Both the position numbers and the translations under genes were made by a program. Below, piece by piece: positions 1 to 44,798 of a DNA stretch of 44,798 nt. The first letter of the stretch is position 1. Every line of letters starts with the position of its first letter. Origin of the DNA: Escherichia phage SECphi18; the sequence record LT960609. One strand, 5' to 3'. The notes beneath the pieces are model-generated. The model made no database searches and was not told where the DNA came from. It was given only the letters and a program-made list of their open reading frames with translations.

Positions 1-55
1 GGTGAATAATAGATTGGTTGCAGGATGGGTGTCAACAACTAATTTAAAAAAAAAA
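1..55. repeat. Terminal duplication, copy 1 (identical to 44744-44798)
   Basis: First 55 nt (ggtgaataatagattggttgcagg...aaaaaaaaaa) recur exactly at the window end. Confidence 0.8.
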
Positions 56-211: not shown

Positions 212-541
212 ATGAATGTAAACGACGCAATCGAAATGTTAACGAAGACTGTTAGCAGTGAGACAAGCCGGTCATGGTCTTATACCGATGCCGTTGGGGC
301 GGTGCTATTTGAGGTCGAGCGCCTGCGCAGTGTAGAAAAAGAATTACGCGCCAGGCTGGAATTGCTCAACGGTACGGCAGCCAGCAAGCTGCAAAAGCAC
401 AATGAAGAAATGGAAGAATACAAAAAGCAGGTTATCCGTTTGCGCGCCGAGGGCAAATCCTGGGCGATGATTGCCGAGTTGACCGGAATTAATCAGAGCA
501 CAGTGCGCTCCTGGGTACGCAATAATAAAACTTCTAAGTAA
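212..541 (+). CDS. Small helix-turn-helix DNA-binding protein (early regulator candidate)
   Basis: 109 aa; RBS gagggaagag before ATG; C-terminal HTH-like segment GKSWAMIAELTGINQSTVRSW. Confidence 0.55.
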   Translation: MNVNDAIEMLTKTVSSETSRSWSYTDAVGAVLFEVERLRSVEKELRARLELLNGTAASKLQKHNEEMEEYKKQVIRLRAEGKSWAMIAELTGINQSTVRSWVRNNKTSK

Positions 542-2976: not shown

Positions 2977-3078
2977 GCGGGACAAAAAGCGGGACAAACA
3001 TGAGGCGGGACAAAGCGGGACAGCACCCCTGTCCCGCCCCGGATGACGCGGCCTGGCGAGGAGCGGGACAGCGGGACA
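2977..3078. repeat. Iteron cluster A: six direct GCGGGACA copies plus one inverted copy
   Basis: GCGGGACA at about 2977, 2989, 3005, 3015, 3063, 3071; inverted TGTCCCGC at about 3030; non-coding. Confidence 0.7.
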
Positions 3079-3138: not shown

Positions 3139-3294
3139 AATCCGGGAGATTGCAAAATACACGGCAGCATGATGCGGATTGCGGTCGTTGATGAACTAGG
3201 CAACCAATGCGGGGTGTATTATGCTGAGTGAAAAATGCGGTTTGCAGTTACAGCAGATAGCGATCGACTTTTTCATGCGCGTGATTAATATTGG

Positions 3295-3323
3295 TTGCAC
3301 CCACCCTGGCACCCTGCTATATT
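3295..3323 (+). promoter_or_regulatory. Sigma70-like promoter overlapping two ATTGGTTGCA motif copies
   Basis: -35 TTGCAC (inside motif copy), 17-nt spacer, -10 TATATT (start of second copy); about 30 nt upstream of the 3352 ATG. Confidence 0.5.
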
Positions 3324-3351
3324 GGTTGCACACCAACATGAGGACTGAACA

Positions 3352-3924: not shown

Positions 3925-4048
3925 TAGGCGGATTCTCGCAGGAGTTTATCTACCTGCATATGTGCGTACTTGACTACGAACAAAACGGCGTCGCCACGGT
4001 GTGCGATGGCGACACGAAGACTATCGAAGAGATTGAGGAGACAGAGCA

Positions 4049-4606
4049 ATGAAATTACTATTCCGCCGTAAAGCAGATGGCCGTATTCTGAAGCCGATCC
4101 AGACCCTGGATTCCTACGTCCGCCTGCAAAACGCGGCAGGCAATCGGGTGTGGCGGGCGCCGAAACACACGCTGCCGCAGTTCTTCGACGTACTCACTCA
4201 CGATATCGAGCGCGGAGATGTGCTGCGTGATATCCGCGACGGTAGTATGTGGATCGTTGAATATGTCGGTCTTCATGGTCTGCGTATGCAATCCCGCAAG
4301 GATGGCGTAGCAGGTATGACTTACTTCGGGCTGGTCAACTACGAGCGAGTGGGCCGAAAATACTGCCTTCGTGACCGCCAGCCGCATGAGCGCGTTGAGT
4401 TCCGCAAGTCACAGCCCGCCTACGCAACCTACGACTCCCACCAGGTGCAGGCGAGGATGAAACGCGCCGCACACGAAATCGTCAATCGCTTTGATGCCGT
4501 GACGAATGCACAGCGCCATGCGCAGGAATACGGCGTGGGGTTTATCCGTGTCGAACCAGACGGCAGCATGAATGCCATCGACCCGCGCTCGGTGATTCTG
4601 AAATGA
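4049..4606 (+). CDS. Hypothetical protein
   Basis: 185 aa ORF; RBS gaggagacagag before ATG. Confidence 0.5.
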   Translation: MKLLFRRKADGRILKPIQTLDSYVRLQNAAGNRVWRAPKHTLPQFFDVLTHDIERGDVLRDIRDGSMWIVEYVGLHGLRMQSRKDGVAGMTYFGLVNYERVGRKYCLRDRQPHERVEFRKSQPAYATYDSHQVQARMKRAAHEIVNRFDAVTNAQRHAQEYGVGFIRVEPDGSMNAIDPRSVILK

Positions 4607-4743
4607 GTGCGTCTATCCGTGATATGCTGATGCACAACCGCTTTGAGATAGGCGGTCGGGTGTTTCGCAATTACTTCGTGGCGCGTGCCTGGGCGCGCCA
4701 TATTGGCAAACCAGAGGGGGCAATACGATGCTACACGATTTAA
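4603..4743 (+). CDS. Small hypothetical protein (46 aa)
   Basis: ATG overlaps upstream stop (ATGA); clean 46-codon frame ending at TAA; below the ORF-track length cutoff. Confidence 0.25.
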   Translation: MSASIRDMLMHNRFEIGGRVFRNYFVARAWARHIGKPEGAIRCYTI

Positions 4744-5015
4744 TATATTGGTTTGGATTGGGGTGCGCGACACTCGTTGTTACGGTGCTGGCGCTGTTGG
4801 TATGGGTATTCCTGATTTGGCCCGCGGTGGAAGCTGCCAGTATTACCCGCATGACGTTTCAGATATACAAGCGCCGTGGAATCACGGAGCACCCGACCAG
4901 GTTGCGCATGTGGTGGCTATGGTATCGCGATATGATAGGGGGCCGGGTGTTCGAGGCCGTCCGATCGGAAGGGTGGGAGTGGAAAGGCGTCGGCAAGTGG
5001 TCCATTTTCGATTAA
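4728..5015 (+). CDS. Small membrane protein
   Basis: 95 aa; RBS gaggggg; hydrophobic N-terminal segment LGCATLVVTVLALLVWVFLIW. Confidence 0.45.
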   Translation: MLHDLIYWFGLGCATLVVTVLALLVWVFLIWPAVEAASITRMTFQIYKRRGITEHPTRLRMWWLWYRDMIGGRVFEAVRSEGWEWKGVGKWSIFD

Positions 5016-5032
5016 TTATGCAAGCGTGATAT

Positions 5033-5067
5033 AGTCCCAGTGAGATAAAACTTACTGGGACTTTTTT
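5033..5067 (+). terminator. Intrinsic terminator abutting the holin start codon
   Basis: agtcccag-14 nt loop-ctgggact followed by T6, then ATG at 5068. Confidence 0.5.
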
Positions 5068-5358
5068 ATGGATAAGCTAAACGAGTGGTTATTCGCCCTT
5101 GCGTGTCTTGCTGGTGGCTTCGTAGGCGCACGCATTCATGGCGAGGCAACGAAAGGGCCGCTAAACTTCGTTTTATATATCGTGGTTGGCTTCCTGTGCG
5201 CCATATTTGGTGCGCCAGCTATCGCCGAGTGGGCGGGCTTATCCGGCGAGCGCACTGTCGCCGGTTTGGGCTTCGTAACTGCAATCTTCTGGATGCCAAT
5301 AGCCGCCCGGATCAGGGAGACTATTGAGTCGTTCCGACTTCCGGGGGGCGCAAAATGA
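5068..5358 (+). CDS. Holin-like membrane protein
   Basis: 96 aa; two or three predicted TM segments; immediately upstream of the endolysin. Confidence 0.5.
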   Translation: MDKLNEWLFALACLAGGFVGARIHGEATKGPLNFVLYIVVGFLCAIFGAPAIAEWAGLSGERTVAGLGFVTAIFWMPIAARIRETIESFRLPGGAK

Positions 5359-5603
5359 TTATCTCCGTCCTGTTGTTTGTTATCATAGGGGCTTCGTCCC
5401 TGTTTAACGTGTATGCGCCGTCCGTCCGGGATGGCATTTTCGGTCGGGTGTTATATCTGTTAACGGCAATGGTCTGTCTTATCGGATTGTTGCAAACAGG
5501 AGACGTATCAGATACCACCTGGACCGCGTTAATCTGGCTGTTTGCATTGCGCACCCTGCGTAATGCTGTTTTGAATGGGGTAAAACATGCGATTCAGCGA
5601 TAA
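5355..5603 (+). CDS. Second small membrane protein (holin/antiholin-like)
   Basis: 82 aa; ATG overlaps upstream stop; hydrophobic segments. Confidence 0.4.
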   Translation: MIISVLLFVIIGASSLFNVYAPSVRDGIFGRVLYLLTAMVCLIGLLQTGDVSDTTWTALIWLFALRTLRNAVLNGVKHAIQR

Positions 5604-6078
5604 CGGTCTACGATTTACGGCAGCATGGGAGACTTTCAGCCCAGTGCCGTATTTCGCGACTAAGAAAGAGCAGGCCCGTGGCCTGTACACCTGGGGCTAT
5701 GGTCACACCGGCACTAATCCGCCGCGGAGCATTACCCGTGCGGAAGCACTGGAGCTACTCAAGCGAGACGTGGCGTATGCCGAAAACTGGGTGAACAAGT
5801 ACGCACACCCGAGCATCAATCAGGCGCAATTCGACGCGCTGGTGGACCTGGTTATCAATGCTGGTCCAGGTCCGATCATGCCGGACGACGTCGCGGGTGA
5901 TTTCGACGATGCGATCCGCCTGGGTGACTGGGCGAAGGTACGGGCTACACTGCCACAATTCCGCAAGCAAGGCGGGGTAGTGCTCAAGGGGCTTGTCCGT
6001 CGTGCAATCGGCAGACAGGCGCTATTCGATGGTAAGCAGTGGGACGTTGCCGAGAGAATCGGGCGAAACGCAGCATAA
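5587..6078 (+). CDS. Endolysin, lysozyme-like (GH24-type muramidase)
   Basis: 163 aa; N-terminal AWETFSPVPY...TWGYGHTG resembles the phage lysozyme catalytic motif. Confidence 0.65.
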   Translation: MRFSDNGLRFTAAWETFSPVPYFATKKEQARGLYTWGYGHTGTNPPRSITRAEALELLKRDVAYAENWVNKYAHPSINQAQFDALVDLVINAGPGPIMPDDVAGDFDDAIRLGDWAKVRATLPQFRKQGGVVLKGLVRRAIGRQALFDGKQWDVAERIGRNAA

Positions 6079-6094
6079 TACGGGGTAACACAGT

Positions 6095-6355
6095 ATGTTA
6101 AAAAGTATTCTTGATCATAACGCCGACGCGCTCGCTGCGCTGGCTAAAACCGAAGACCCTGGCGCACGCGCTATCATCGCGGATACGATCAGCCATGCGG
6201 GGGTCTTCGATGCGAAGTTGCCCAGCCCGCCGGAAAGTAAGCCGGTGACTAGTGCATCCGTAACTATCACACCGGAATCCGCCGCAGTTGGTGCGAATGC
6301 CACCGCTTCGGTTGCGGTCCAGCCACCCGACGCGACTAACAAGGCAGGGAAGTAG
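6095..6355 (+). CDS. Hypothetical protein (Ala/Pro/Ser-rich)
   Basis: 86 aa ORF directly after the endolysin. Confidence 0.35.
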   Translation: MLKSILDHNADALAALAKTEDPGARAIIADTISHAGVFDAKLPSPPESKPVTSASVTITPESAAVGANATASVAVQPPDATNKAGK

Positions 6356-6514
6356 GTGTCGTCGAATCCTGCCTGTGCGGCGATCGATCAGACTACCGGA
6401 GAAATCACAGCCCAAGCGGCAGGTAGCGCCCACATCTTTTGGGTGGCCTCCGATGGTAGCGGGGCAATGGCGTCCGCCATCTTCACCGTAACGGAAGCAG
6501 GAGAATAAAACCAC

Positions 6515-6540
6515 AAGCCCGGTTAATTCCGGGCTTTTTA
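6515..6540 (+). terminator. Intrinsic terminator
   Basis: aagcccgg-ttaatt-ccgggctt followed by a T-run. Confidence 0.6.
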
Positions 6541-6569
6541 TTGCTTGACTCGGGACCGTGGTATATTGT
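6541..6569 (+). promoter_or_regulatory. Possible sigma70-like promoter
   Basis: TTGCTT, about 17-nt spacer, TATTGT, upstream of the 6601 ATG; weak. Confidence 0.3.
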
Positions 6570-6600
6570 CCTCGGACCCATAATCAGGAAGTGGATTAAT

Positions 6601-7763: not shown

Positions 7764-7789
7764 AGCCCGCCGATTTGGTGGGCTTTTTT
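7764..7789 (+). terminator. Intrinsic terminator
   Basis: agcccgcc-gattt-ggtgggct (one G-U pair) followed by T6. Confidence 0.5.
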
Positions 7790-7803
7790 GTGCCTGTTAT
7801 AAT
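7775..7803 (+). promoter_or_regulatory. Sigma70-like promoter with extended -10, upstream of terminase genes
   Basis: -35 TTGGTG, 17-nt spacer, TGtTATAAT. Confidence 0.45.
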
Positions 7804-8425: not shown

Positions 8426-9810
8426 TGCGTAACTATGCGGCAGAACACCGCGCACTGGAACGCGCGATCGCAAAGCGCAACCTACCGCCACGCCCGACAC
8501 GCGTTGCGCAGGCGGTGCGTCTTTACCAGCCTGATTGCCTACCGCACCAGGTCGAACTACTGCGCGACACAAAGACTAAAATACTCGGCCTGTGTTCCGG
8601 CTTCGGTGGTGGAAAGTCGTGGGTCGCTGCGCGTAAGGTAATCCAGCTTCTCACCCTGAACCCTGGTCATGATGGAATTGTGACGGAACCGACTATTCCG
8701 CTCCTGGTTAAAATTATGTATCCGGAATTGGAAAAGGCGTTTGACGAGGCTGGCTTCCGGTGGAAGTTCAATAAGCAGGACAAGATCTATAATGTGCTGG
8801 TGAAAGGAAAATGGACTCGCGTTATCTGTGAATCAATGGAGAACTATACCCGCCTGATTGGGGTTAACGCCGCGTGGATTGTTGCCGACGAGTTCGATAC
8901 CACGAAGCAAGACGTTGCGCTGGCGGCGTATCACAAATTGCTCGGTCGTCTGCGTGCAGGCTTTGTGCGCCAGTTCGTCATCGTGTCCACCCCGGAAGGC
9001 TACCGGGCGATGTACCAGATTTTCGAAGTGGAGAAGGATAGCCAGAAGCGTTTGATCCGGGCGAAGACCACCGACAACCACCATTTACCGGCAGACTTTA
9101 TCGACACGCTGCGCAGTCAGTACCCGGCTAACCTGATCGACGCGTACCTGAACGGCCTATTTGTTAACCTTACGTCGGGCGCGGTGTACAAGATGTTCAA
9201 CCGTGAGGAGAACGCCAGCACTGAAGAAGTGCAACCCGACGACACGCTGATTATCGGTATGGACTTTAACGTCACGAAGATGGCGGCGGTCGTGTACGTC
9301 AGACGGCAGCGCATCACCGAAAACAAGGAGTTCCGCGACGAGATCCACGCAGTGGATGAATTCGTGGACCTGTTTGACACCCCGGCTATGATTGAGGCGA
9401 TCGAGGAGCGCTACCCCGATCATTGTGCTGCCGGTCGGGTCGTCGTTTACCCGGATAGCAGCGGCAAGTCCCGCAAGACTGTCAACGCATCGTCGTCAGA
9501 TATCGCACAACTGGAAGACGCGGGCTTCGAGGTGGAGTACGACAGCGTTAACCCACCTGTGAAAGACCGATTGATCGCGATGAATACGATGATGTGCAAC
9601 TCGAAGGGCGTGCGCCAGTATTTTGTCAACCTGGATAAATGCCCTACACTAGCGAAATGTCTGGAACAGCAGGTTTACGACCTGAAGAAAGGCGAGCCGG
9701 ATAAAACCGCCGGGGTGGACCACATGAACGATGCCGCGGGCTATCCAATTGCGCACCTGTTCCCAGTGATTCGCCCAATCGCCGTTGTTCCAACTGTAGA
9801 CTTCTACTAA
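8425..9810 (+). CDS. Terminase large subunit
   Basis: 461 aa; Walker A GFGGGKS and Walker B-like WIVADE; ATG overlaps upstream stop. Confidence 0.85.
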   Translation: MRNYAAEHRALERAIAKRNLPPRPTRVAQAVRLYQPDCLPHQVELLRDTKTKILGLCSGFGGGKSWVAARKVIQLLTLNPGHDGIVTEPTIPLLVKIMYPELEKAFDEAGFRWKFNKQDKIYNVLVKGKWTRVICESMENYTRLIGVNAAWIVADEFDTTKQDVALAAYHKLLGRLRAGFVRQFVIVSTPEGYRAMYQIFEVEKDSQKRLIRAKTTDNHHLPADFIDTLRSQYPANLIDAYLNGLFVNLTSGAVYKMFNREENASTEEVQPDDTLIIGMDFNVTKMAAVVYVRRQRITENKEFRDEIHAVDEFVDLFDTPAMIEAIEERYPDHCAAGRVVVYPDSSGKSRKTVNASSSDIAQLEDAGFEVEYDSVNPPVKDRLIAMNTMMCNSKGVRQYFVNLDKCPTLAKCLEQQVYDLKKGEPDKTAGVDHMNDAAGYPIAHLFPVIRPIAVVPTVDFY

Positions 9811-12729: not shown

Positions 12730-12862
12730 ACCACCTTGCACCTTTGAGAATGCCTCGGCAGATCCAGACGAAGACTTGCTGGTTGATGTTAAAAATATGG
12801 AATGCGGGGCTAAGCTAAGGGCGCAAGTGCTGGAGTTGCAGAAAATAATTCGGGGGCCGTGA
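12632..12862 (+). CDS. o-spanin (Rz1-like outer-membrane lipoprotein)
   Basis: 76 aa; signal peptide with lipobox LMMSAC; starts inside the i-spanin gene in a different frame. Confidence 0.55.
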   Translation: MLRVLTVLIAVLMMSACGSSNVPSTPLTESVYRPPCTFENASADPDEDLLVDVKNMECGAKLRAQVLELQKIIRGP

Positions 12863-15709: not shown

Positions 15710-15735
15710 GGGCGGGCTTATGCCCGCCTTTTTTA
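15710..15735 (+). terminator. Intrinsic terminator after the capsid gene
   Basis: gggcgggc-ttat-gcccgcc followed by T6. Confidence 0.6.
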
Positions 15736-18511: not shown

Positions 18512-18541
18512 TTTGGTCGCTTAAATAGCGAGTGATAATAT

Positions 18542-18565
18542 GGGGCCAGCACGGCCCCTTTTTTA
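18542..18565 (+). terminator. Intrinsic terminator after the major tail gene
   Basis: ggggcc-agcac-ggcccc followed by T6. Confidence 0.6.
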
Positions 18566-18580
18566 TTGGAGAATATTACA

Positions 18581-18943
18581 ATGGCTAAAGCACCACTCTT
18601 CACACTTGACCCTAAGCCAACCTTTAAGCTGCCGATTGAGATCCCGCGCCCTGGTGAGAACGAACCCGGCAAGATGACTTTTACCGTCCGCCACCGCCCG
18701 ATCGACGAATTTTCGCAAACCATGCAGGACACCGAACGCAAGTTGTCTGAATATGACGACAATGACCCGGACGGCTTTAACGTTATGGTCGAGGCCATCA
18801 TGCACGTCGCTGAAGGCTGGAATCTGCCGGATGAATTTAACGCAGAGAACGTCCGCCGCCTGGTGGTCAACTACCCACGCGCGTTCGGTGTGTTCCACAC
18901 GTCGTACTATCTCGAGCTGATGGGGTTGCGAGAAAAAAACTAA
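18581..18943 (+). CDS. Tail assembly chaperone (gpG-like)
   Basis: 120 aa from ATG with RBS ggag; ends just after a slippery A_AAA_AAC heptamer. Confidence 0.6.
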   Translation: MAKAPLFTLDPKPTFKLPIEIPRPGENEPGKMTFTVRHRPIDEFSQTMQDTERKLSEYDDNDPDGFNVMVEAIMHVAEGWNLPDEFNAENVRRLVVNYPRAFGVFHTSYYLELMGLREKN

Positions 18944-19261: not shown

Positions 19262-19518
19262 GCGGGACAAAAGCGGGACGTCCCGTTTTGTCCCGCCCTG
19301 TAAAACCGCATATCTAATCTCTTTCATTGCATAAACTCAAAGCGGGACAGGCGGGACGTCCCGTTTTGTCCCACCCCGAAATGTGCATACCTATTCGAAT
19401 TTCGTGCATAAAACAAACGGGACAAAAAGCGGGACAGCATAGGGGCGGGACAAAGCGGGACAGCACCCCGTCCCCACCAGTGCTGCCGCGGGTTTTAGCC
19501 GATCGGGACAGCGGGACA
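19262..19518. repeat. Iteron cluster B: about nine GCGGGACA-type copies with GGGACGTCCC palindromes
   Basis: Units of about 80 nt: tgcataaa, then GCGGGACA, then GCGGGACgtcccg; non-coding block inside the tail module. Confidence 0.7.
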
Positions 19519-19578: not shown

Positions 19579-19640
19579 GGATTGTTTTAAAATCGCTGAT
19601 ACAATGTCAATCGGCAACTGCATAAAAAGGGGACTGCATA

Positions 19641-22283
19641 ATGGCAGATCAAGCGGCAGGCATCACGCTGAAGGCTGATGTTGCACAAATCAGAACGGCA
19701 AATACTGTGCTGGACTCCTTCGCACAGAAATCCGAGAACACAGAAAACAAGGTTAAGAAATTAAACGACACCCTCGGCAAATCCAAAAAGGTGACGAGTG
19801 ACGCCGCGGGCGGAATGGAAAAGCTGGCAAACGAATCGCAGCGCGCCGCCGATGGCATGACGAAACAGGAGCGACTCGCCAACAGGTTAGGGATGTCGAC
19901 TAAAAACCTGGGCTTTGCCTCGCGTAACGCCGCATTCCAGCTACAGGATATTGCGGTAACGCTTGAGATGGGGATGCCGGTTCACCGCGTCATGCTTCAG
20001 CAGTTACCGCAGCTAACTGGGGCGTTCGGTGGACTGGGTAACACGCTGCGTTATGTTGCGGGCTTCCTCGGCCCAGTAGGGATCGGCCTTGCCGCCGTAA
20101 CGGCAACGTTAGGCGTGGGCGTGGCAATTACGTCCCGCGCAGAGAACCAGGTCGCCGCGCTTAACAAGACGCTGGCACTTTCCGGTAACATTTCCGGCCT
20201 GACGGCAAACCAGATCCTGGTGCTATCCGAGAACGCCGAGCGCATGGGCGGGTCGTTCCGCAAGACGCGTGACACAATCCAGGCGCTGGCGGCGGCGGGG
20301 GTGAAAGCGGGTGGTGACTTCGGTGCACTGGCGAAGGTAGTGAATGACTTCTCGAAGGTGTCCAGCCAGCCGATCGAGGATGTGGTCGCGGCGGTGGCGA
20401 AGCTGTCTACCGACCCGGTAGGCGGCTTGCGAGCATTGGCTGATAAGTATCACGTCGTAAACGAAGCGCAGATCCAGCAGGTGCAGTCACTAGTGACGGC
20501 TGGTCGCGAAACCGAAGCGGTGGCGCTGGCTAACAAAACAGCCGCGGCGTCGTTTACCACTATGACCAATGAGATCAAGTCCAACATGGGTACGCTTGAG
20601 CGGTCGATGAACGTCGTTACATCGGCAGCTAAATCTATGTGGGATGCTATCCTGGATGTTGGACGCGCGCAGTCCTCGAATGAGTCTGAGATGAAGGCGC
20701 GTGAGTCATTGCAGCGGCTGACAACGGCTTACTATGCCGAGATGAAAGCGGTAAACGCTGCCGGCGGGGTGATGACCGACGCGCAGAAAGCGCGTATTAA
20801 CATGCTTTACAGCGAACTGGTCGCCCAGGAAAAGGTGGTGGCGTCGCTTACCCTGCGTAACCGAGCCGAGCGAGACAACGCAAGTGCCGCGGACGAAGCA
20901 GCAAAGGCGAACGAAGAGGCCAACCGCACCGCCCGCGACCGCGCCGCGTTCGAGAAGGAGTACGCAACCAACGCGAAGAGGCGCGCCGACGAGATCGCCC
21001 GCCTCAATTTGCTTAATAAGCGCGGCGTGATTGACGAGAAAGAGCTTGCCGAGGCGGTGAAGCAGGTAAACGAGCGTTACAAAGACCCCGCCCCGAAGAA
21101 GGCCGCCGCTGTTCGAGTCGATGCCGGGCTGAAAATGCTGGAAGTCGCGCGAAGCGAATTAGCCCAGCTTCGTGAGTCTGGAAAGCAGATCGAAGCCAAC
21201 GCATCGACGCAGACCCGCACGCAACGCGCGCAGGCGGCCCTAAACAAGCTGATTGCCGACAACGAGCAGTTAATCGCTGCGAGCAAAGAAAGGGCGCTGA
21301 CGGCAGCAGAGAAGCAGCAATTAGTCGAGTTCGGGCGCGTGAAGGAAGTCCGCGAGCAGATCGTCGAAGAAGCCAAATTGCTGGACGCGAAAGAGAAGCA
21401 GGTCAAGGCGCACGCGCAGATCGACGCCTTCGTTAAGAACCAGAACGCCGAGCTAAAAGCCACCGCGGCGGGCTATGCGCTTTCCACTCGCGAAGCGGCT
21501 AACCTGCGCGAAGAATTGCAGCTAATTGACCGCCTTAAGCGGGTGGGCGCTAGTGATACCGATATTGATCTGGCAGTGTCTAAACTGCGCGAAGTGCAGG
21601 AAGCACAGACCGGTGCTAACGCCTCACTATGGGATGGATTCAGCCGTGGGCTTAAGGATAGCGTGGATGAAATGGGTAACGGCTATACGCAGATGGCGTC
21701 ACTCACAAAATTCACGTTCGGCGCTATGCAGGACACGATGAACGAGTTTTTCGAGACTGGCAAGCTGAACGCAAAGGATATGGTTAAGTCCATCCTGAGC
21801 GAATTAATAAAGCTGGCTACATCGCAGGCATTCAAGTCCATCGTTAGCGCTTTCGGTGGCGACGGTGGAAAAAACGGGTTGTTCGGCGCTATCTTCTCCG
21901 GCCTCACTAAGAATGCGGACGGCGGAGCGTACGCAGGAGGCAATCTCGCATCCTATTCGGGGAAAGTGGTAAGCCAGCCTACCTTTTTCAGTTATGGCGT
22001 CCAGGCGTTCGCTAAGGGCGCGGGATTGATGGGTGAGGCTGGACCCGAGGCCATCATGCCACTGAAGCGCGGGCCGGACGGGAAACTGGGCGTTGCCGCG
22101 TCTGGCGCAGGCGGTGGTATGGTCGTGACGACTAACGTTTACACGGGGACCGGTAAAACGGATACCAGTGTCAACGGGCCGGACCCACGTACCGCGCAGG
22201 CGTTCGGCAAGCAAATCACCGAGGCGGTGAAGGCCGAGATCGTGAAGGCGACGAAACCGGGTGGTGTACTTTACAAACGATGA
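19641..22283 (+). CDS. Tail tape measure protein
   Basis: 880 aa; long Ala/Lys/Glu-rich helical protein after G/GT; Gly-rich C-terminal region. Confidence 0.85.
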   Translation: MADQAAGITLKADVAQIRTANTVLDSFAQKSENTENKVKKLNDTLGKSKKVTSDAAGGMEKLANESQRAADGMTKQERLANRLGMSTKNLGFASRNAAFQLQDIAVTLEMGMPVHRVMLQQLPQLTGAFGGLGNTLRYVAGFLGPVGIGLAAVTATLGVGVAITSRAENQVAALNKTLALSGNISGLTANQILVLSENAERMGGSFRKTRDTIQALAAAGVKAGGDFGALAKVVNDFSKVSSQPIEDVVAAVAKLSTDPVGGLRALADKYHVVNEAQIQQVQSLVTAGRETEAVALANKTAAASFTTMTNEIKSNMGTLERSMNVVTSAAKSMWDAILDVGRAQSSNESEMKARESLQRLTTAYYAEMKAVNAAGGVMTDAQKARINMLYSELVAQEKVVASLTLRNRAERDNASAADEAAKANEEANRTARDRAAFEKEYATNAKRRADEIARLNLLNKRGVIDEKELAEAVKQVNERYKDPAPKKAAAVRVDAGLKMLEVARSELAQLRESGKQIEANASTQTRTQRAQAALNKLIADNEQLIAASKERALTAAEKQQLVEFGRVKEVREQIVEEAKLLDAKEKQVKAHAQIDAFVKNQNAELKATAAGYALSTREAANLREELQLIDRLKRVGASDTDIDLAVSKLREVQEAQTGANASLWDGFSRGLKDSVDEMGNGYTQMASLTKFTFGAMQDTMNEFFETGKLNAKDMVKSILSELIKLATSQAFKSIVSAFGGDGGKNGLFGAIFSGLTKNADGGAYAGGNLASYSGKVVSQPTFFSYGVQAFAKGAGLMGEAGPEAIMPLKRGPDGKLGVAASGAGGGMVVTTNVYTGTGKTDTSVNGPDPRTAQAFGKQITEAVKAEIVKATKPGGVLYKR

Positions 22284-22290
22284 TAAAATG

Positions 22291-22317
22291 GCCCTCACTA
22301 CAACGTGGGGGCTTTTT
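22291..22317 (+). terminator. Terminator-like hairpin abutting the next start codon
   Basis: gccctcac-tacaac-gtgggggc (one G-U) followed by T5, then ATG. Confidence 0.4.
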
Positions 22318-22917
22318 ATGTCACAAGGTACAATCACACTAACGAAAGGAAGTAAGACCGTCACGGGCGCGGGAACGGCGTTCCTTAGCGAGATCGGGAA
22401 GGTACTCGTATTCGCCCGCATCGACGGCAACGACTACACCGGCAAAATTGCGGCATTCAACTCGAACACGGTCATTACTCTGAAAGATAACTGGGCCGGT
22501 CCGACGAAATCCGGTGCGGCATATGAGCTAATCGAAGCACACGACCCGCGATCAAACGAATGGCCCTATTACTGGCACATGCAATTGCAAGGCGGCGGAG
22601 ACGTGCAGTTGTCTTTCCGGTCCGAGGAATTGCAATTTGGTAACGGTTATGGTCAGAACATCGCAGACGGCCCGAACGCCGAGACGAAACAGTTCCCCGT
22701 GCAATTCATAGGGCTGACTACTGATAAGTGGTGCAACCCCAAACTGGTTTACAACTTCCTTCGCGGGCACTTCGTCAAGCCGTTTGTCGTTACCGCGCCG
22801 GATGGCGAAACAGGTTTATTCGTGGTCGAGCGTTCGAGCTTGTCGTACACGGACAACGGGCACTACACGGCAACGGTATCCGCCACCCTGAAAACTGCTA
22901 TTGGATTCGTAAGATGA
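22318..22917 (+). CDS. Minor/distal tail protein (gpM position)
   Basis: 199 aa from internal ATG; first gene after the tape measure. Confidence 0.5.
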   Translation: MSQGTITLTKGSKTVTGAGTAFLSEIGKVLVFARIDGNDYTGKIAAFNSNTVITLKDNWAGPTKSGAAYELIEAHDPRSNEWPYYWHMQLQGGGDVQLSFRSEELQFGNGYGQNIADGPNAETKQFPVQFIGLTTDKWCNPKLVYNFLRGHFVKPFVVTAPDGETGLFVVERSSLSYTDNGHYTATVSATLKTAIGFVR

Positions 22918-44743: not shown

Positions 44744-44798
44744 GGTGAATAATAGATTGGTTGCAGGATGGGTGTCAACAACTAATTTAAAAAAAAAA
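44744..44798. repeat. Terminal duplication, copy 2 (identical to 1-55)
   Basis: Last 55 nt equal the first 55 nt. Confidence 0.8.

What the first reader, a model, noticed from the sequence alone, without database searches (positions are those of the whole stretch)
5033..5070. Intrinsic terminator directly abutting the holin start codon
A strong hairpin with a T6 run ends one nucleotide before the holin ATG, leaving no Shine-Dalgarno sequence. Holin expression would depend on read-through or unusual initiation, which could serve lysis timing. A similar arrangement precedes the gene at 22318.
Basis: seen in the sequence. Interest (0 to 1): 0.35.

Follow-up and report, generated by a model that had tools for sequence, protein, structure and literature searches.

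The report
Terminator hairpin masking holin start
A conserved hairpin plus T-run sits flush against the start codon of a phage holin gene; it is probably a working terminator, but it also covers the ribosome-binding region and is overlapped by a conserved promoter-like element, so the lysis genes may be expressed from a transcript that starts inside the hairpin, an untested variant of a known phage mechanism.

Summary
A 12-bp hairpin (5033-5062) and a T6 run (5062-5067) directly abut the ATG (5068) of a PHROG-family holin in a Dhillonvirus genome. The only Shine-Dalgarno (SD)-like sequence is a weak GGGA inside the 3' arm. The element scores as an intrinsic terminator, and one GenBank relative (PTXU06) already annotates it as one.

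The hairpin is more than a terminator. Homologous holins of Kagunavirus/Jerseyvirus phages carry a hairpin at the same position (stem base at -6 from the start). Five or six of the nine shared pairs are changed on both sides. There the 3' arm is a canonical GGAGGA and no T-run follows. So the helix is an older ribosome-binding-site mask, and the terminator tail is specific to Dhillonvirus.

An invariant TGnTAnnnT (extended -10) motif overlaps the 5' arm in both lineages. It belongs to a set of such motifs that is strongly enriched in this phage's intergenic gaps. A transcript started there (about 5042) would lack the 5' arm, escape termination and have an open start region, as at T4 gene e.

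Nothing has been tested experimentally. Verdict: moderately interesting, a new variant of known kinds.

The parts
4728..5015 (+). Upstream gene: a 95-aa membrane protein of unknown function (phrog_2531). It is the last gene of the putative operon that starts at the 3315 promoter. Its stop codon TAA is at 5013-5015, 17 nt before the stem.
   Evidence: It is not homologous to the gene upstream of the Kagunavirus holin.
5027..5035 (+). Extended -10-like element TGATATAGT (TG at 5027-5028, hexamer TATAGT at 5030-5035). Its last three bases are the first three of the 5' arm.
   Evidence: Invariant in every sampled Dhillonvirus relative. The pattern CGTGnTATnnT is invariant across Dhillonvirus and Guernseyvirinae, with n = A/C/G. 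The motif class is enriched in + strand intergenic gaps, 7 observed against 0.38 expected.
5041..5044 (+). Predicted transcription start (about 5042) if 5027-5035 is a promoter. RNA from here lacks the first 8-11 nt of the 12-nt 5' arm (9 of 12 from 5042).
   Evidence: Inferred from the usual sigma-70 spacing of about 7 nt from the -10 hexamer. Opening energy of -18..+13 falls from 16.9-20.4 to 5.9 kcal/mol.
5033..5044 (+). 5' arm of the hairpin (AGTCCCAGTGAG).
5045..5050 (+). Loop (ATAAAA). Positions 1 and 3 of the loop vary among Dhillonvirus relatives (a third site, position 5, in the Ioannina-type, whose loop is also one nt longer); upstream of the loop, the only variable positions lie before CGTG.
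5051..5062 (+). 3' arm (CTTACTGGGACT). It contains the weak SD-like GGGA at 5057-5060, at the position held by GGAGGA in Guernseyvirinae.
5062..5067 (+). T6 run (U-tract of the terminator). It is T6-T8 in relatives and abuts the ATG.
   Evidence: Terminator score d = 19-27.
5025..5029 (+). Weak outer helix CGUGA pairing with UUAUG (5066-5070), which would cover the AUG. The partner is not the same in Kagunavirus.
5068..5358 (+). Holin gene (96 aa, three hydrophobic segments).
5355..5603 (+). Second holin-like gene (82 aa), ATGA overlap with the first.
5587..6078 (+). Endolysin (Phage_lysozyme).
6515..6536 (.). Bidirectional terminator that closes the lysis cassette, followed by the extended -10 motif TGGTATATT at 6559-6567.
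22281..22320 (+). Second site of the same design: TGATAAAAT (22281-22289, where TGA is the tape-measure stop), hairpin 22290-22313 with GGGGG at 22307-22311 in the 3' arm, T5 at 22313-22317, and the ATG at 22318 of a minor tail protein.
18533..18583 (+). Third site where the motif abuts a terminator: TGATAATAT (18533-18541), hairpin 18542-18558, T6, then a free GGAG and the ATG at 18581. There is no masking of the ribosome-binding site here.

Best explanation
The 5025-5070 segment is a compact three-in-one control element at the head of the lysis cassette.

(1) In RNA made from upstream (the operon starting near 3315), both arms are present. The hairpin plus U6 terminates most transcripts just before the holin ATG.

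(2) In the fraction that reads through, the hairpin buries everything from -6 upstream, including the SD-equivalent positions. The holin is then poorly translated.

(3) The DNA that encodes the start of the 5' arm also carries a sigma-70 extended -10 promoter (TGATATAGT). Transcripts started there (about 5042) lack most of the 5' arm. They are neither terminated nor masked, and they carry a 26-nt U-rich leader with a weak GGGA and a strong AUG.

This is the logic of T4 gene e (lysozyme), with a terminator tail added.

What is shown here: the hairpin, its terminator-type features, its conservation and pair-preserving changes, the conserved motif, and the motif's genome-wide pattern. What is inferred: actual termination, actual promoter activity, the start site and the translational effect.
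For: Hairpin real and non-random.

Terminator features: d = 19-27, within the range of the phage's other terminators (8-40), while the Guernseyvirinae hairpins score -38 to -55. ARNOLD-annotated as a terminator in PTXU06.

Selection on the helix: the stem base sits at -6 from the start codon in both lineages. Pairs at -7, -10, -12, -13 and -14 (and -8 except against the Ioannina-type Dhillonvirus, L015, which is also C-G there) are changed on both sides and are still Watson-Crick. Within Dhillonvirus, substitutions fall only in the loop, upstream of CGTG, or as changes in T-run length. The 75-nt element is at least 95% identical in 139 of 155 records, whereas no record reaches 95% over the 2.6-kb flank.

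Masking: opening -18..+13 costs 16.9-20.4 kcal/mol with the hairpin and 5.9 without the 5' arm. Uncoupled genes here cost 3.5-9.3.

Promoter: CGTGnTATnnT is invariant across two lineages, with n free. In Dhillonvirus the TAT lies outside the stem. Motifs with at least 5 of 6 hexamer matches in + strand intergenic gaps: 7 observed, 0.38 +/- 0.61 expected, 0 of 2000 shuffles. Motifs abutting terminator stems: 3 of 8 observed, 0.06 expected, 0 of 5000 shuffles. At 6559, 7795 and 18533, TG and the TA…T hexamer frame are kept in relatives (one internal hexamer change at 18533: TAATAT to TAACAT) while n and the flanks change; at 19597 the whole motif is invariant while the flanks change. At 6559 this holds even where the upstream sequence is entirely replaced. 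Motif-to-ATG distances are uniform, 37-48 nt at six sites.

The element travels with the holin, not with the upstream gene. Pantoea phage MED16, with a distant holin homologue, has a terminator, then TGCTATCGT, then an SD and ATG, in non-overlapping order.

Precedent: T4 genes e, soc, 49 and I-TevI (PMC3014915).
Against: No transcript 5' or 3' ends exist for any Dhillonvirus or Kagunavirus.

There is no convincing -35 element. A sigma-70 promoter would not by itself give late timing.

Part of the motif overlaps the stem (AGT here, ATCCT in Kagunavirus). At 22281 it overlaps the stop codons TGA TAA, so its conservation there is confounded.

A/T-rich sequence before a terminator stem is common.

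Other terminators in this late block (12852, 15710) have no promoter after them. Read-through is therefore clearly used in this genome and could suffice here too.

An upstream polymerase would cross the promoter before terminating, so the layout does not protect the promoter from occlusion.

The Dhillonvirus-Kagunavirus intergenic sequence similarity is only marginal (18 of 500 shuffles reach it).

The motif tests were designed after seeing the pattern.
Confidence: 0.5

Rival explanations
1. Plain leaky terminator or attenuator. The hairpin only ends the upstream operon. The lysis genes are made from the minority of transcripts that read through. The holin is translated weakly, without a real SD, from the accessible AUG and U-rich spacer. 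This keeps holin low and lysis late.
For: All terminator features are present. The AUG and -5..+13 stay accessible even with the hairpin, at 4.2 kcal/mol. Terminators at 12852 and 15710 have no promoter motif downstream, so read-through expression exists in this genome. The U-rich leader and strong AUG could support S1-dependent initiation (general knowledge).
Against: It does not explain the invariant TGnTAT upstream of the stem in two lineages. It does not explain the genome-wide pattern of that motif. It does not explain why the same hairpin exists without a T-run in Guernseyvirinae, or why the element travels with the holin rather than the upstream gene. A 12-bp helix ending at -6 lies inside the 30S binding region.
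Confidence: 0.3
2. Translational operator only. The helix exists to control holin translation, as in Guernseyvirinae. The U-run is a spacer or S1-binding enhancer, and little termination occurs in vivo.
For: The hairpin at -6 predates the T-run. At the 22290 site the T-run decays in some relatives (TTTTCT, TCTTCT) while the hairpin and G-run persist.
Against: At the holin site the T-run is never interrupted in any sampled relative and only lengthens, T6-T8. The score is typical of this phage's terminators. The SD in the arm has degenerated to GGGA, so there is little left to sequester.
Confidence: 0.1
3. Lambda-like processive antitermination. A phage factor makes RNA polymerase ignore this terminator and the other seven + strand terminators late in infection, which switches on lysis and structural genes.
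For: Eight co-oriented intrinsic terminators punctuate the 26-kb late block. The lysis cassette precedes the terminase genes, as in lambda.
Against: No Q-like or other antiterminator domain was found in the upstream genes by Pfam, PHROGs, NCBIfam or PDB sequence search. No two-hexamer sigma-70 promoter was found on the + strand anywhere upstream of the hairpin (nearest + strand hit at 9365) to play the part of pR'. Most terminators are followed or overlapped by their own promoter-like motif.
Confidence: 0.07
4. Split ribosome-binding site, as in T4 genes 38 and 25. GUGAU (5026-5030) upstream of the hairpin acts as the SD, and the hairpin loops out to bring it within about 7 nt of the AUG.
For: GUGAU is complementary to the 16S 3' end. 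With the helix formed, the spacing is 2 + 5 nt. The mechanism is documented for T4 genes 38 and 25 (PMC3014915).
Against: The fourth base (the A of GUGAU, the n of TGn) is C or G in Kagunavirus, which breaks the complementarity. Kagunavirus has its SD inside the arm instead. The duplex is weak.
Confidence: 0.03

Closest known systems
T4 gene e (lysozyme) translation-initiation-region hairpin with embedded late promoters; also T4 soc, 49 and I-TevI (McPheeters et al. 1986; reviewed in PMC3014915)
   Same: A lysis gene whose ribosome-binding region is buried in a helix in transcripts coming from upstream. A promoter lies in the DNA encoding the 5' strand, so its own transcripts lack that strand and are translatable.
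   Different: The candidate promoter here is a sigma-70 extended -10, not the gp55-dependent TATAAATA. The helix is followed by a U-run, so it should also terminate. The SD in the arm is vestigial (GGGA). Nothing has been shown experimentally.
Lambda late-operon entry: pR'-tR' with Q antitermination, and the sdi structure at the S (holin) start
   Same: A terminator just upstream of the holin at the head of the lysis and late genes. RNA structure at the holin start affects its translation.
   Different: No pR'-like promoter or short terminated RNA upstream, and no Q homologue was found. There is no dual-start (Met-Lys-Met) holin/antiholin motif. The terminator touches the ATG.
Ordinary intrinsic terminators or attenuators between phage late genes (for example after major capsid and major tail genes), and 5'UTR terminators mapped by ONT-cappable-seq in Pseudomonas phages (PMC10914365)
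   Same: GC-rich stem plus U-tract, partial read-through that sets the expression ratio. ARNOLD already annotates this one in phage PTXU06.
   Different: Ordinary cases leave room for an SD and spacer, as at 15710 and 18542 in this window. Here the U-tract is the spacer, the 3' arm occupies the SD position, and the -10 element precedes the stem rather than the whole hairpin.
SD-sequestering hairpin of Kagunavirus/Jerseyvirus holin genes
   Same: Homologous holin (46-50% aa identity), stem base at -6 from the start, the same CGTGnTAT just upstream, and homologous-looking arm cores (CCAG/CTGG).
   Different: Canonical GGAGGA in the 3' arm, a UUG start, a UUCAUC spacer and a long loop. It scores as a non-terminator.

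Membership tests
Rho-independent (intrinsic) terminator | GC-containing stem of about 5-14 bp with a short loop | tested here: met
   12 bp, 6 G-C, 6-nt loop, -19.3 kcal/mol.
Rho-independent (intrinsic) terminator | U-tract immediately after the stem | tested here: met
   T6 at 5062-5067, T6-T8 in relatives. Tail score 4.07-4.56, d = 19-27 > 0, using my own implementation of the d'Aubenton-Carafa scheme.
Rho-independent (intrinsic) terminator | Transcript 3' ends at the U-tract in vivo or in vitro | not testable with these tools
   No transcript data were found for this phage group.
T4 gene e-type masked translation-initiation region with internal promoter | SD and/or AUG sequestered in a helix in upstream-initiated RNA | tested here: inconclusive
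   The SD-equivalent positions -12..-7 are in the helix, and opening costs an extra 11-14 kcal/mol. But the SD is only GGGA, and the AUG itself is nearly free at 4.2 kcal/mol. In Guernseyvirinae the feature is fully met, with GGAGGA in the arm.
T4 gene e-type masked translation-initiation region with internal promoter | Promoter located in the DNA encoding the 5' strand, so that its transcripts lack that strand | tested here: inconclusive
   A conserved TGATATAGT overlaps the 5' arm and the predicted +1 is about 5042. Promoter activity and the start site were not measured.
Sigma-70 extended -10 promoter | TGn immediately upstream of a -10 hexamer with A at position 2 and T at position 6 | tested here: met
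   TG-A-TATAGT, 5 of 6 hexamer matches. TG and TAT..T are invariant and n is variable across lineages.
Sigma-70 extended -10 promoter | Transcription initiation by E. coli RNA polymerase holoenzyme | not testable with these tools
   Needs in vitro transcription or a reporter assay.
Lambda Q-type late antitermination module | Q-family antiterminator gene next to a constitutive promoter and a short terminated leader upstream of the holin | tested here: not met
   No antiterminator domain in the upstream ORFs. No two-hexamer promoter on the + strand upstream. The intergenic gap is only 52 nt.
Dual-start holin/antiholin (lambda S type) | Two in-frame starts separated by one or two codons, including a basic residue | tested here: not met
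   The N-terminus is MDKLNEW with a single start. The next in-frame start is about codon 39.
Known RNA family (Rfam) | Match at or above a family's gathering score | tested here: not met
   No hit in the whole window. The best sub-threshold hit is NsiR1, 28.1 bits against a 39-bit cutoff, a generic hairpin-plus-tail resemblance.

The most novel reading that the evidence does not exclude
Dhillonviruses, and in part Guernseyvirinae, use a nested 'promoter-in-terminator' module. One segment of about 40 nt does four jobs. For RNA arriving from upstream it is a terminator and a translational mask. For the next transcription unit it is the promoter and the leader, because the -10 element sits on the 5' arm and initiation occurs past it. 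The design recurs at 5027, 18533 and 22281. It would be a general way to insulate and restart transcription units in a compact genome, and to keep holin silent on read-through RNA.
Probability: 0.4. Interest if true: 0.55.

Novelty: new variant of a known kind. Interest (0 to 1): 0.38.

Why it matters
If the nested design is real, it shows how a virulent siphophage that relies on host RNA polymerase keeps early read-through transcription from making holin, using about 40 nt and no dedicated protein. It would extend the T4 gene e principle to sigma-70 promoters and combine it with termination. It would also give phage engineers a very compact insulator-plus-restart part. It would correct annotation habits too: terminators touching start codons need not mean read-through expression. 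If only the ordinary reading holds (a leaky terminator and a weak start), the element is a routine expression-tuning device. It is already annotated in a relative and has little wider consequence.

Tried and rejected
- **Alternative holin start:** rejected. There is an in-frame TGA at 5041-5043 and no other start before about codon 39. The N-terminus is conserved.
- **Dual-start holin:** absent.
- **Split SD (GUGAU plus a looped-out hairpin):** rejected. The base is not conserved in Kagunavirus.
- **Q-type antitermination:** no candidate protein or pR'-like promoter. This is absence of evidence only. I did not model the structure of the 185-aa unknown protein (4049-4606).
- **Rfam:** nothing.
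- **Literature:** no transcript mapping for Dhillonvirus. The Kagunavirus K1B4 RNA-seq paper (PMC12645636) gives only coarse temporal classes and no transcript ends.
- **Metagenome scan:** the first attempt failed because the alignment was too divergent. The second returned only the same two lineages, so no intermediate forms were found.
- **Distant homologues:** Pectobacterium Arno18 shows no comparable hairpin.
- **Plain sequence alignment of the Dhillonvirus and Kagunavirus intergenic regions:** only marginal, 18 of 500 shuffles. I therefore call the hairpins positionally equivalent and probably homologous, not proven homologous.
- **MAFFT alignment A2:** it aligned by sequence, not structure, so I did not use the count of structure pairs on it. 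Pairs were compared explicitly, anchored on the start codon.
- I used 18590 as the chaperone start. The ATG is at 18581, and this was corrected.
- **Outer helix CGUGA/UUAUG:** it is weak and its partner differs in Kagunavirus, so I give it little weight.

Full report
**What the window is.** The 44,798-base window is a whole genome of a Dhillonvirus (HK578-like virulent E. coli siphophage). 155 deposited phages match the 4000-6600 region at 80-95% identity. The two ends are a 55-nt direct repeat, that is, an assembly overlap. Genes from about 212 to 31578 run on the + strand: HTH protein, helicase, small genes, lysis cassette, exonuclease, terminase, head, tail. Genes from 44732 down to 31610 run on the - strand.

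The sequence is AGTCCCAGTGAG-ATAAAA-CTTACTGGGACT (5033-5062), then a T6 run (5062-5067), then ATG at 5068.
- The RNA folds far better than shuffles (z = -6.2, 0 of 200).
- ATG 5068 is the only workable start. There is an in-frame TGA at 5041-5043, and the next in-frame start is about 38 codons in.
- The product is a 96-aa protein with three hydrophobic segments that matches PHROG holin family 2359 (E 1e-31). It is followed by a second holin-like gene and a Phage_lysozyme endolysin.
- The best anti-Shine-Dalgarno (SD) duplex upstream is -3.9 kcal/mol (GGGA inside the 3' arm). Most confident starts in this genome give -6 to -11.
- A relative's GenBank record (PTXU06) already annotates the homologous hairpin as an ARNOLD terminator ending 7 nt before the holin CDS. 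The bare observation is therefore not new.

**Terminator character.** I scored the site with a d'Aubenton-Carafa-type score. This is my own implementation from memory, so the numbers are only comparative.
- The holin site scores d = 19-27.
- The phage's other + strand terminators score 8-40 (6515, 7764, 12852, 15710, 18542, 22290, 31585).
- Those at 15710 and 18542 are followed by a normal spacer with AGGAG/GGAG before the next ATG. Only 5033 and 22290 touch an ATG.

**The hairpin is older than its T-run.** The holin has 46-50% identical homologues in Kagunavirus and Jerseyvirus (Guernseyvirinae).
- Upstream of their start (UUG, aligned with the Dhillonvirus AUG; MDK... in both) lies a hairpin whose stem base is also at -6.
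- Its 3' arm is a canonical GGAGGA paired to UCCUCC. Its spacer is UUCAUC, and it scores as a non-terminator (d = -38 to -55).
- Anchored on the start codon, pairs at -7, -10, -12, -13 and -14 differ on both sides between the lineages, and also at -8 for most Dhillonviruses (the Ioannina-type, L015, is C-G there like Guernseyvirinae). All remain Watson-Crick.
- The genes upstream are unrelated, so the element travels with the holin cassette.
- Plain sequence similarity of the two intergenic regions is only marginal. I therefore call them positionally equivalent and probably homologous.
- Within Dhillonvirus, about 20 distinct versions from IMG/VR, metagenomes and GenBank vary only in the loop, upstream of CGTG, and in T-run length (T6-T8).
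- The 75-nt element is at least 95% identical in 139 of 155 records, whereas no record reaches 95% over the surrounding 2.6 kb.

**Effect on ribosome access.** Opening -18..+13 costs 16.9-20.4 kcal/mol in RNA that contains both arms. Uncoupled genes in this genome cost 3.5-9.3. The AUG and U-spacer alone (-5..+13) cost only 4.2. SD-independent initiation on read-through RNA is therefore not physically excluded.

**A promoter-like element on the 5' arm.** TGATATAGT (5027-5035) is an extended -10 match.
- Across Dhillonvirus and Guernseyvirinae the invariant columns upstream of the stem spell CGTG-n-TAT-nn-T, with n = A, C or G. In Dhillonvirus the TAT is outside the stem.
- Genome-wide, TGnTAnnnT is over-represented on the + strand: 42 observed against 27.7 +/- 5.6 expected.
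- After correcting for composition, motifs with at least 5 of 6 hexamer matches occur 7 times in the 1.9 kb of + strand intergenic DNA, against 0.38 +/- 0.61 expected (0 of 2000 shuffles).
- The motif abuts 3 of the 8 + strand terminator stems, against 0.06 expected (0 of 5000 shuffles). These tests were framed after I saw the pattern.
- Footprinting against the divergent phage Ioannina and 15 IMG/VR genomes supports a functional motif. At 6559, 7795 and 18533, TG and the TA…T hexamer frame persist (one internal hexamer change at 18533, TAATAT to TAACAT in the Ioannina-type) while n changes (6559 G/A, 7795 T/A, 18533 A/T). At 19597 the whole motif is invariant while its flanks vary. Insertions of 26 and 12 nt, or wholesale replacement of the upstream segment, occur next to the motifs.
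- Motif-to-ATG distances are 37-48 nt at six sites. This gives predicted leaders of 22-33 nt.
- With the usual spacing of about 7 nt from the -10 hexamer (general knowledge of sigma-70 promoters), initiation at the holin site would be near 5042. That RNA lacks 9 of the 12 bases of the 5' arm. It cannot form the terminator, and its start region opens for 5.9 kcal/mol.
- The same geometry holds in Kagunavirus (TGcTATCCT, with +1 just past the AUCCUCCAG arm) and at 18533 and 22281.

**The second site.** At 22290 the hairpin, T5 and ATG (minor tail protein) resemble the holin site, with three differences.
- The 3' arm carries GGGGG (-8.4 kcal/mol).
- The tape-measure stop codon lies 6 nt before the stem. 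A terminating ribosome should melt the stem base, giving translational coupling. This is inferred from ribosome footprint size.
- In some relatives the T-run decays (TTTTCT, TCTTCT) while the hairpin and G-run persist through U.G, C-G and U-A changes.

**Comparison with known systems.** The closest functional precedent is T4 gene e (also soc, 49 and I-TevI). There, upstream-initiated RNA buries the ribosome-binding site, and late promoters in the DNA of the 5' strand give translatable RNA (PMC3014915). The differences here are:
- a sigma-70 extended -10 instead of the gp55 late promoter;
- an added U-tract;
- a vestigial SD.

Lambda's pR'-tR'-Q module and S-gene sdi/dual start were considered. 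No Q-like protein, no pR'-like promoter and no dual start were found. The T4 gene 38/25 split SD was considered and rejected. Rfam has no matching family.

**Verdict.**
Read-through or unusual initiation is only one of two live mechanisms, and in my judgement the less supported one.
- My best explanation (confidence about 0.5) is a three-in-one element: a terminator and translational mask for upstream RNA, plus an embedded promoter for the lysis cassette.
- The plain leaky-terminator reading stands at about 0.3.
- No experiment exists for either, and primary 5'-end mapping would decide between them.
- Novelty: a new variant of known kinds. Interest: moderate.

Noticed in passing
window 1-55 and 44744-44798: The first and last 55 bases are identical, which is an assembly overlap of a circular or permuted genome. 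The unique length is about 44,743 bp. The TTGACA/TATTAT promoter-like site reported at both ends is the same site seen twice.
   Followed up: yes
window 6353-6355 (within 6095-6508): The Ig-like domain gene after the endolysin is split by an in-frame TAG where PTXU06 and Ioannina have TGG (Trp). This is a natural amber mutation, a sequencing error, or possibly read-through.
   Followed up: partly
window 2977-3078 and 19262-19518: Two arrays of seven copies each of GCGGGACA (16 copies in the genome against 2.35 expected). Each array is followed by the identical 16-mer GTCTGAGACTGAATAA (3123 and 19563) and then by an extended -10 motif (3315, 19597). These look like binding arrays for a phage regulator, or iterons. 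One lies in the 535-nt non-coding gap after the helicase gene, the other before the tape-measure gene.
   Followed up: partly
window 14, 3291, 3322, 3839, 13663, 13676, 29774, 32801/32814, 34468, 34485, 44757: TTGGTTGCA occurs 13 times exactly (24 with at most 1 mismatch, against 11 +/- 3 expected), often as pairs or inverted pairs. Copies flank the -35 and -10 of the putative promoter at 3291-3330 and sit near other promoter-like sites. The motif looks like an operator. Ioannina has extra copies next to its 6559- and 19597-equivalent promoters.
   Followed up: partly
window 212-541: The first + strand gene encodes a 109-aa protein whose C-terminal HTH matches sigma-70 region 4 / HTH_23 (E about 1e-6 to 1e-7). 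It is a candidate for the factor that binds one of the repeated motifs or modulates promoter use.
   Followed up: no
window 6515-6567 and 7764-7803: Terminator-then-promoter modules in non-overlapping order: the bidirectional terminator at 6515-6536 followed by TGGTATATT (6559), and the terminator at 7764-7784 followed by a perfect TGTTATAAT (7795). The terminator stems show compensatory changes in Ioannina.
   Followed up: yes
L018 (Salmonella phage TU03, MZ560703) 1501 vs 1537: The deposited holin CDS starts at an internal ATG (1537). The conserved UUG at 1501, which aligns with the Dhillonvirus ATG and follows GGAGGA by 6 nt, is the more likely start.
   Followed up: partly
L020 (Pantoea phage MED16) about 1395-1477: A distant holin homologue is preceded by a strong terminator (GGCCCCAC...GTGGGGC-T9), then TGCTATCGT, then an SD and the ATG 44 nt after the motif. 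These are the same parts as in the window but not overlapped.
   Followed up: no
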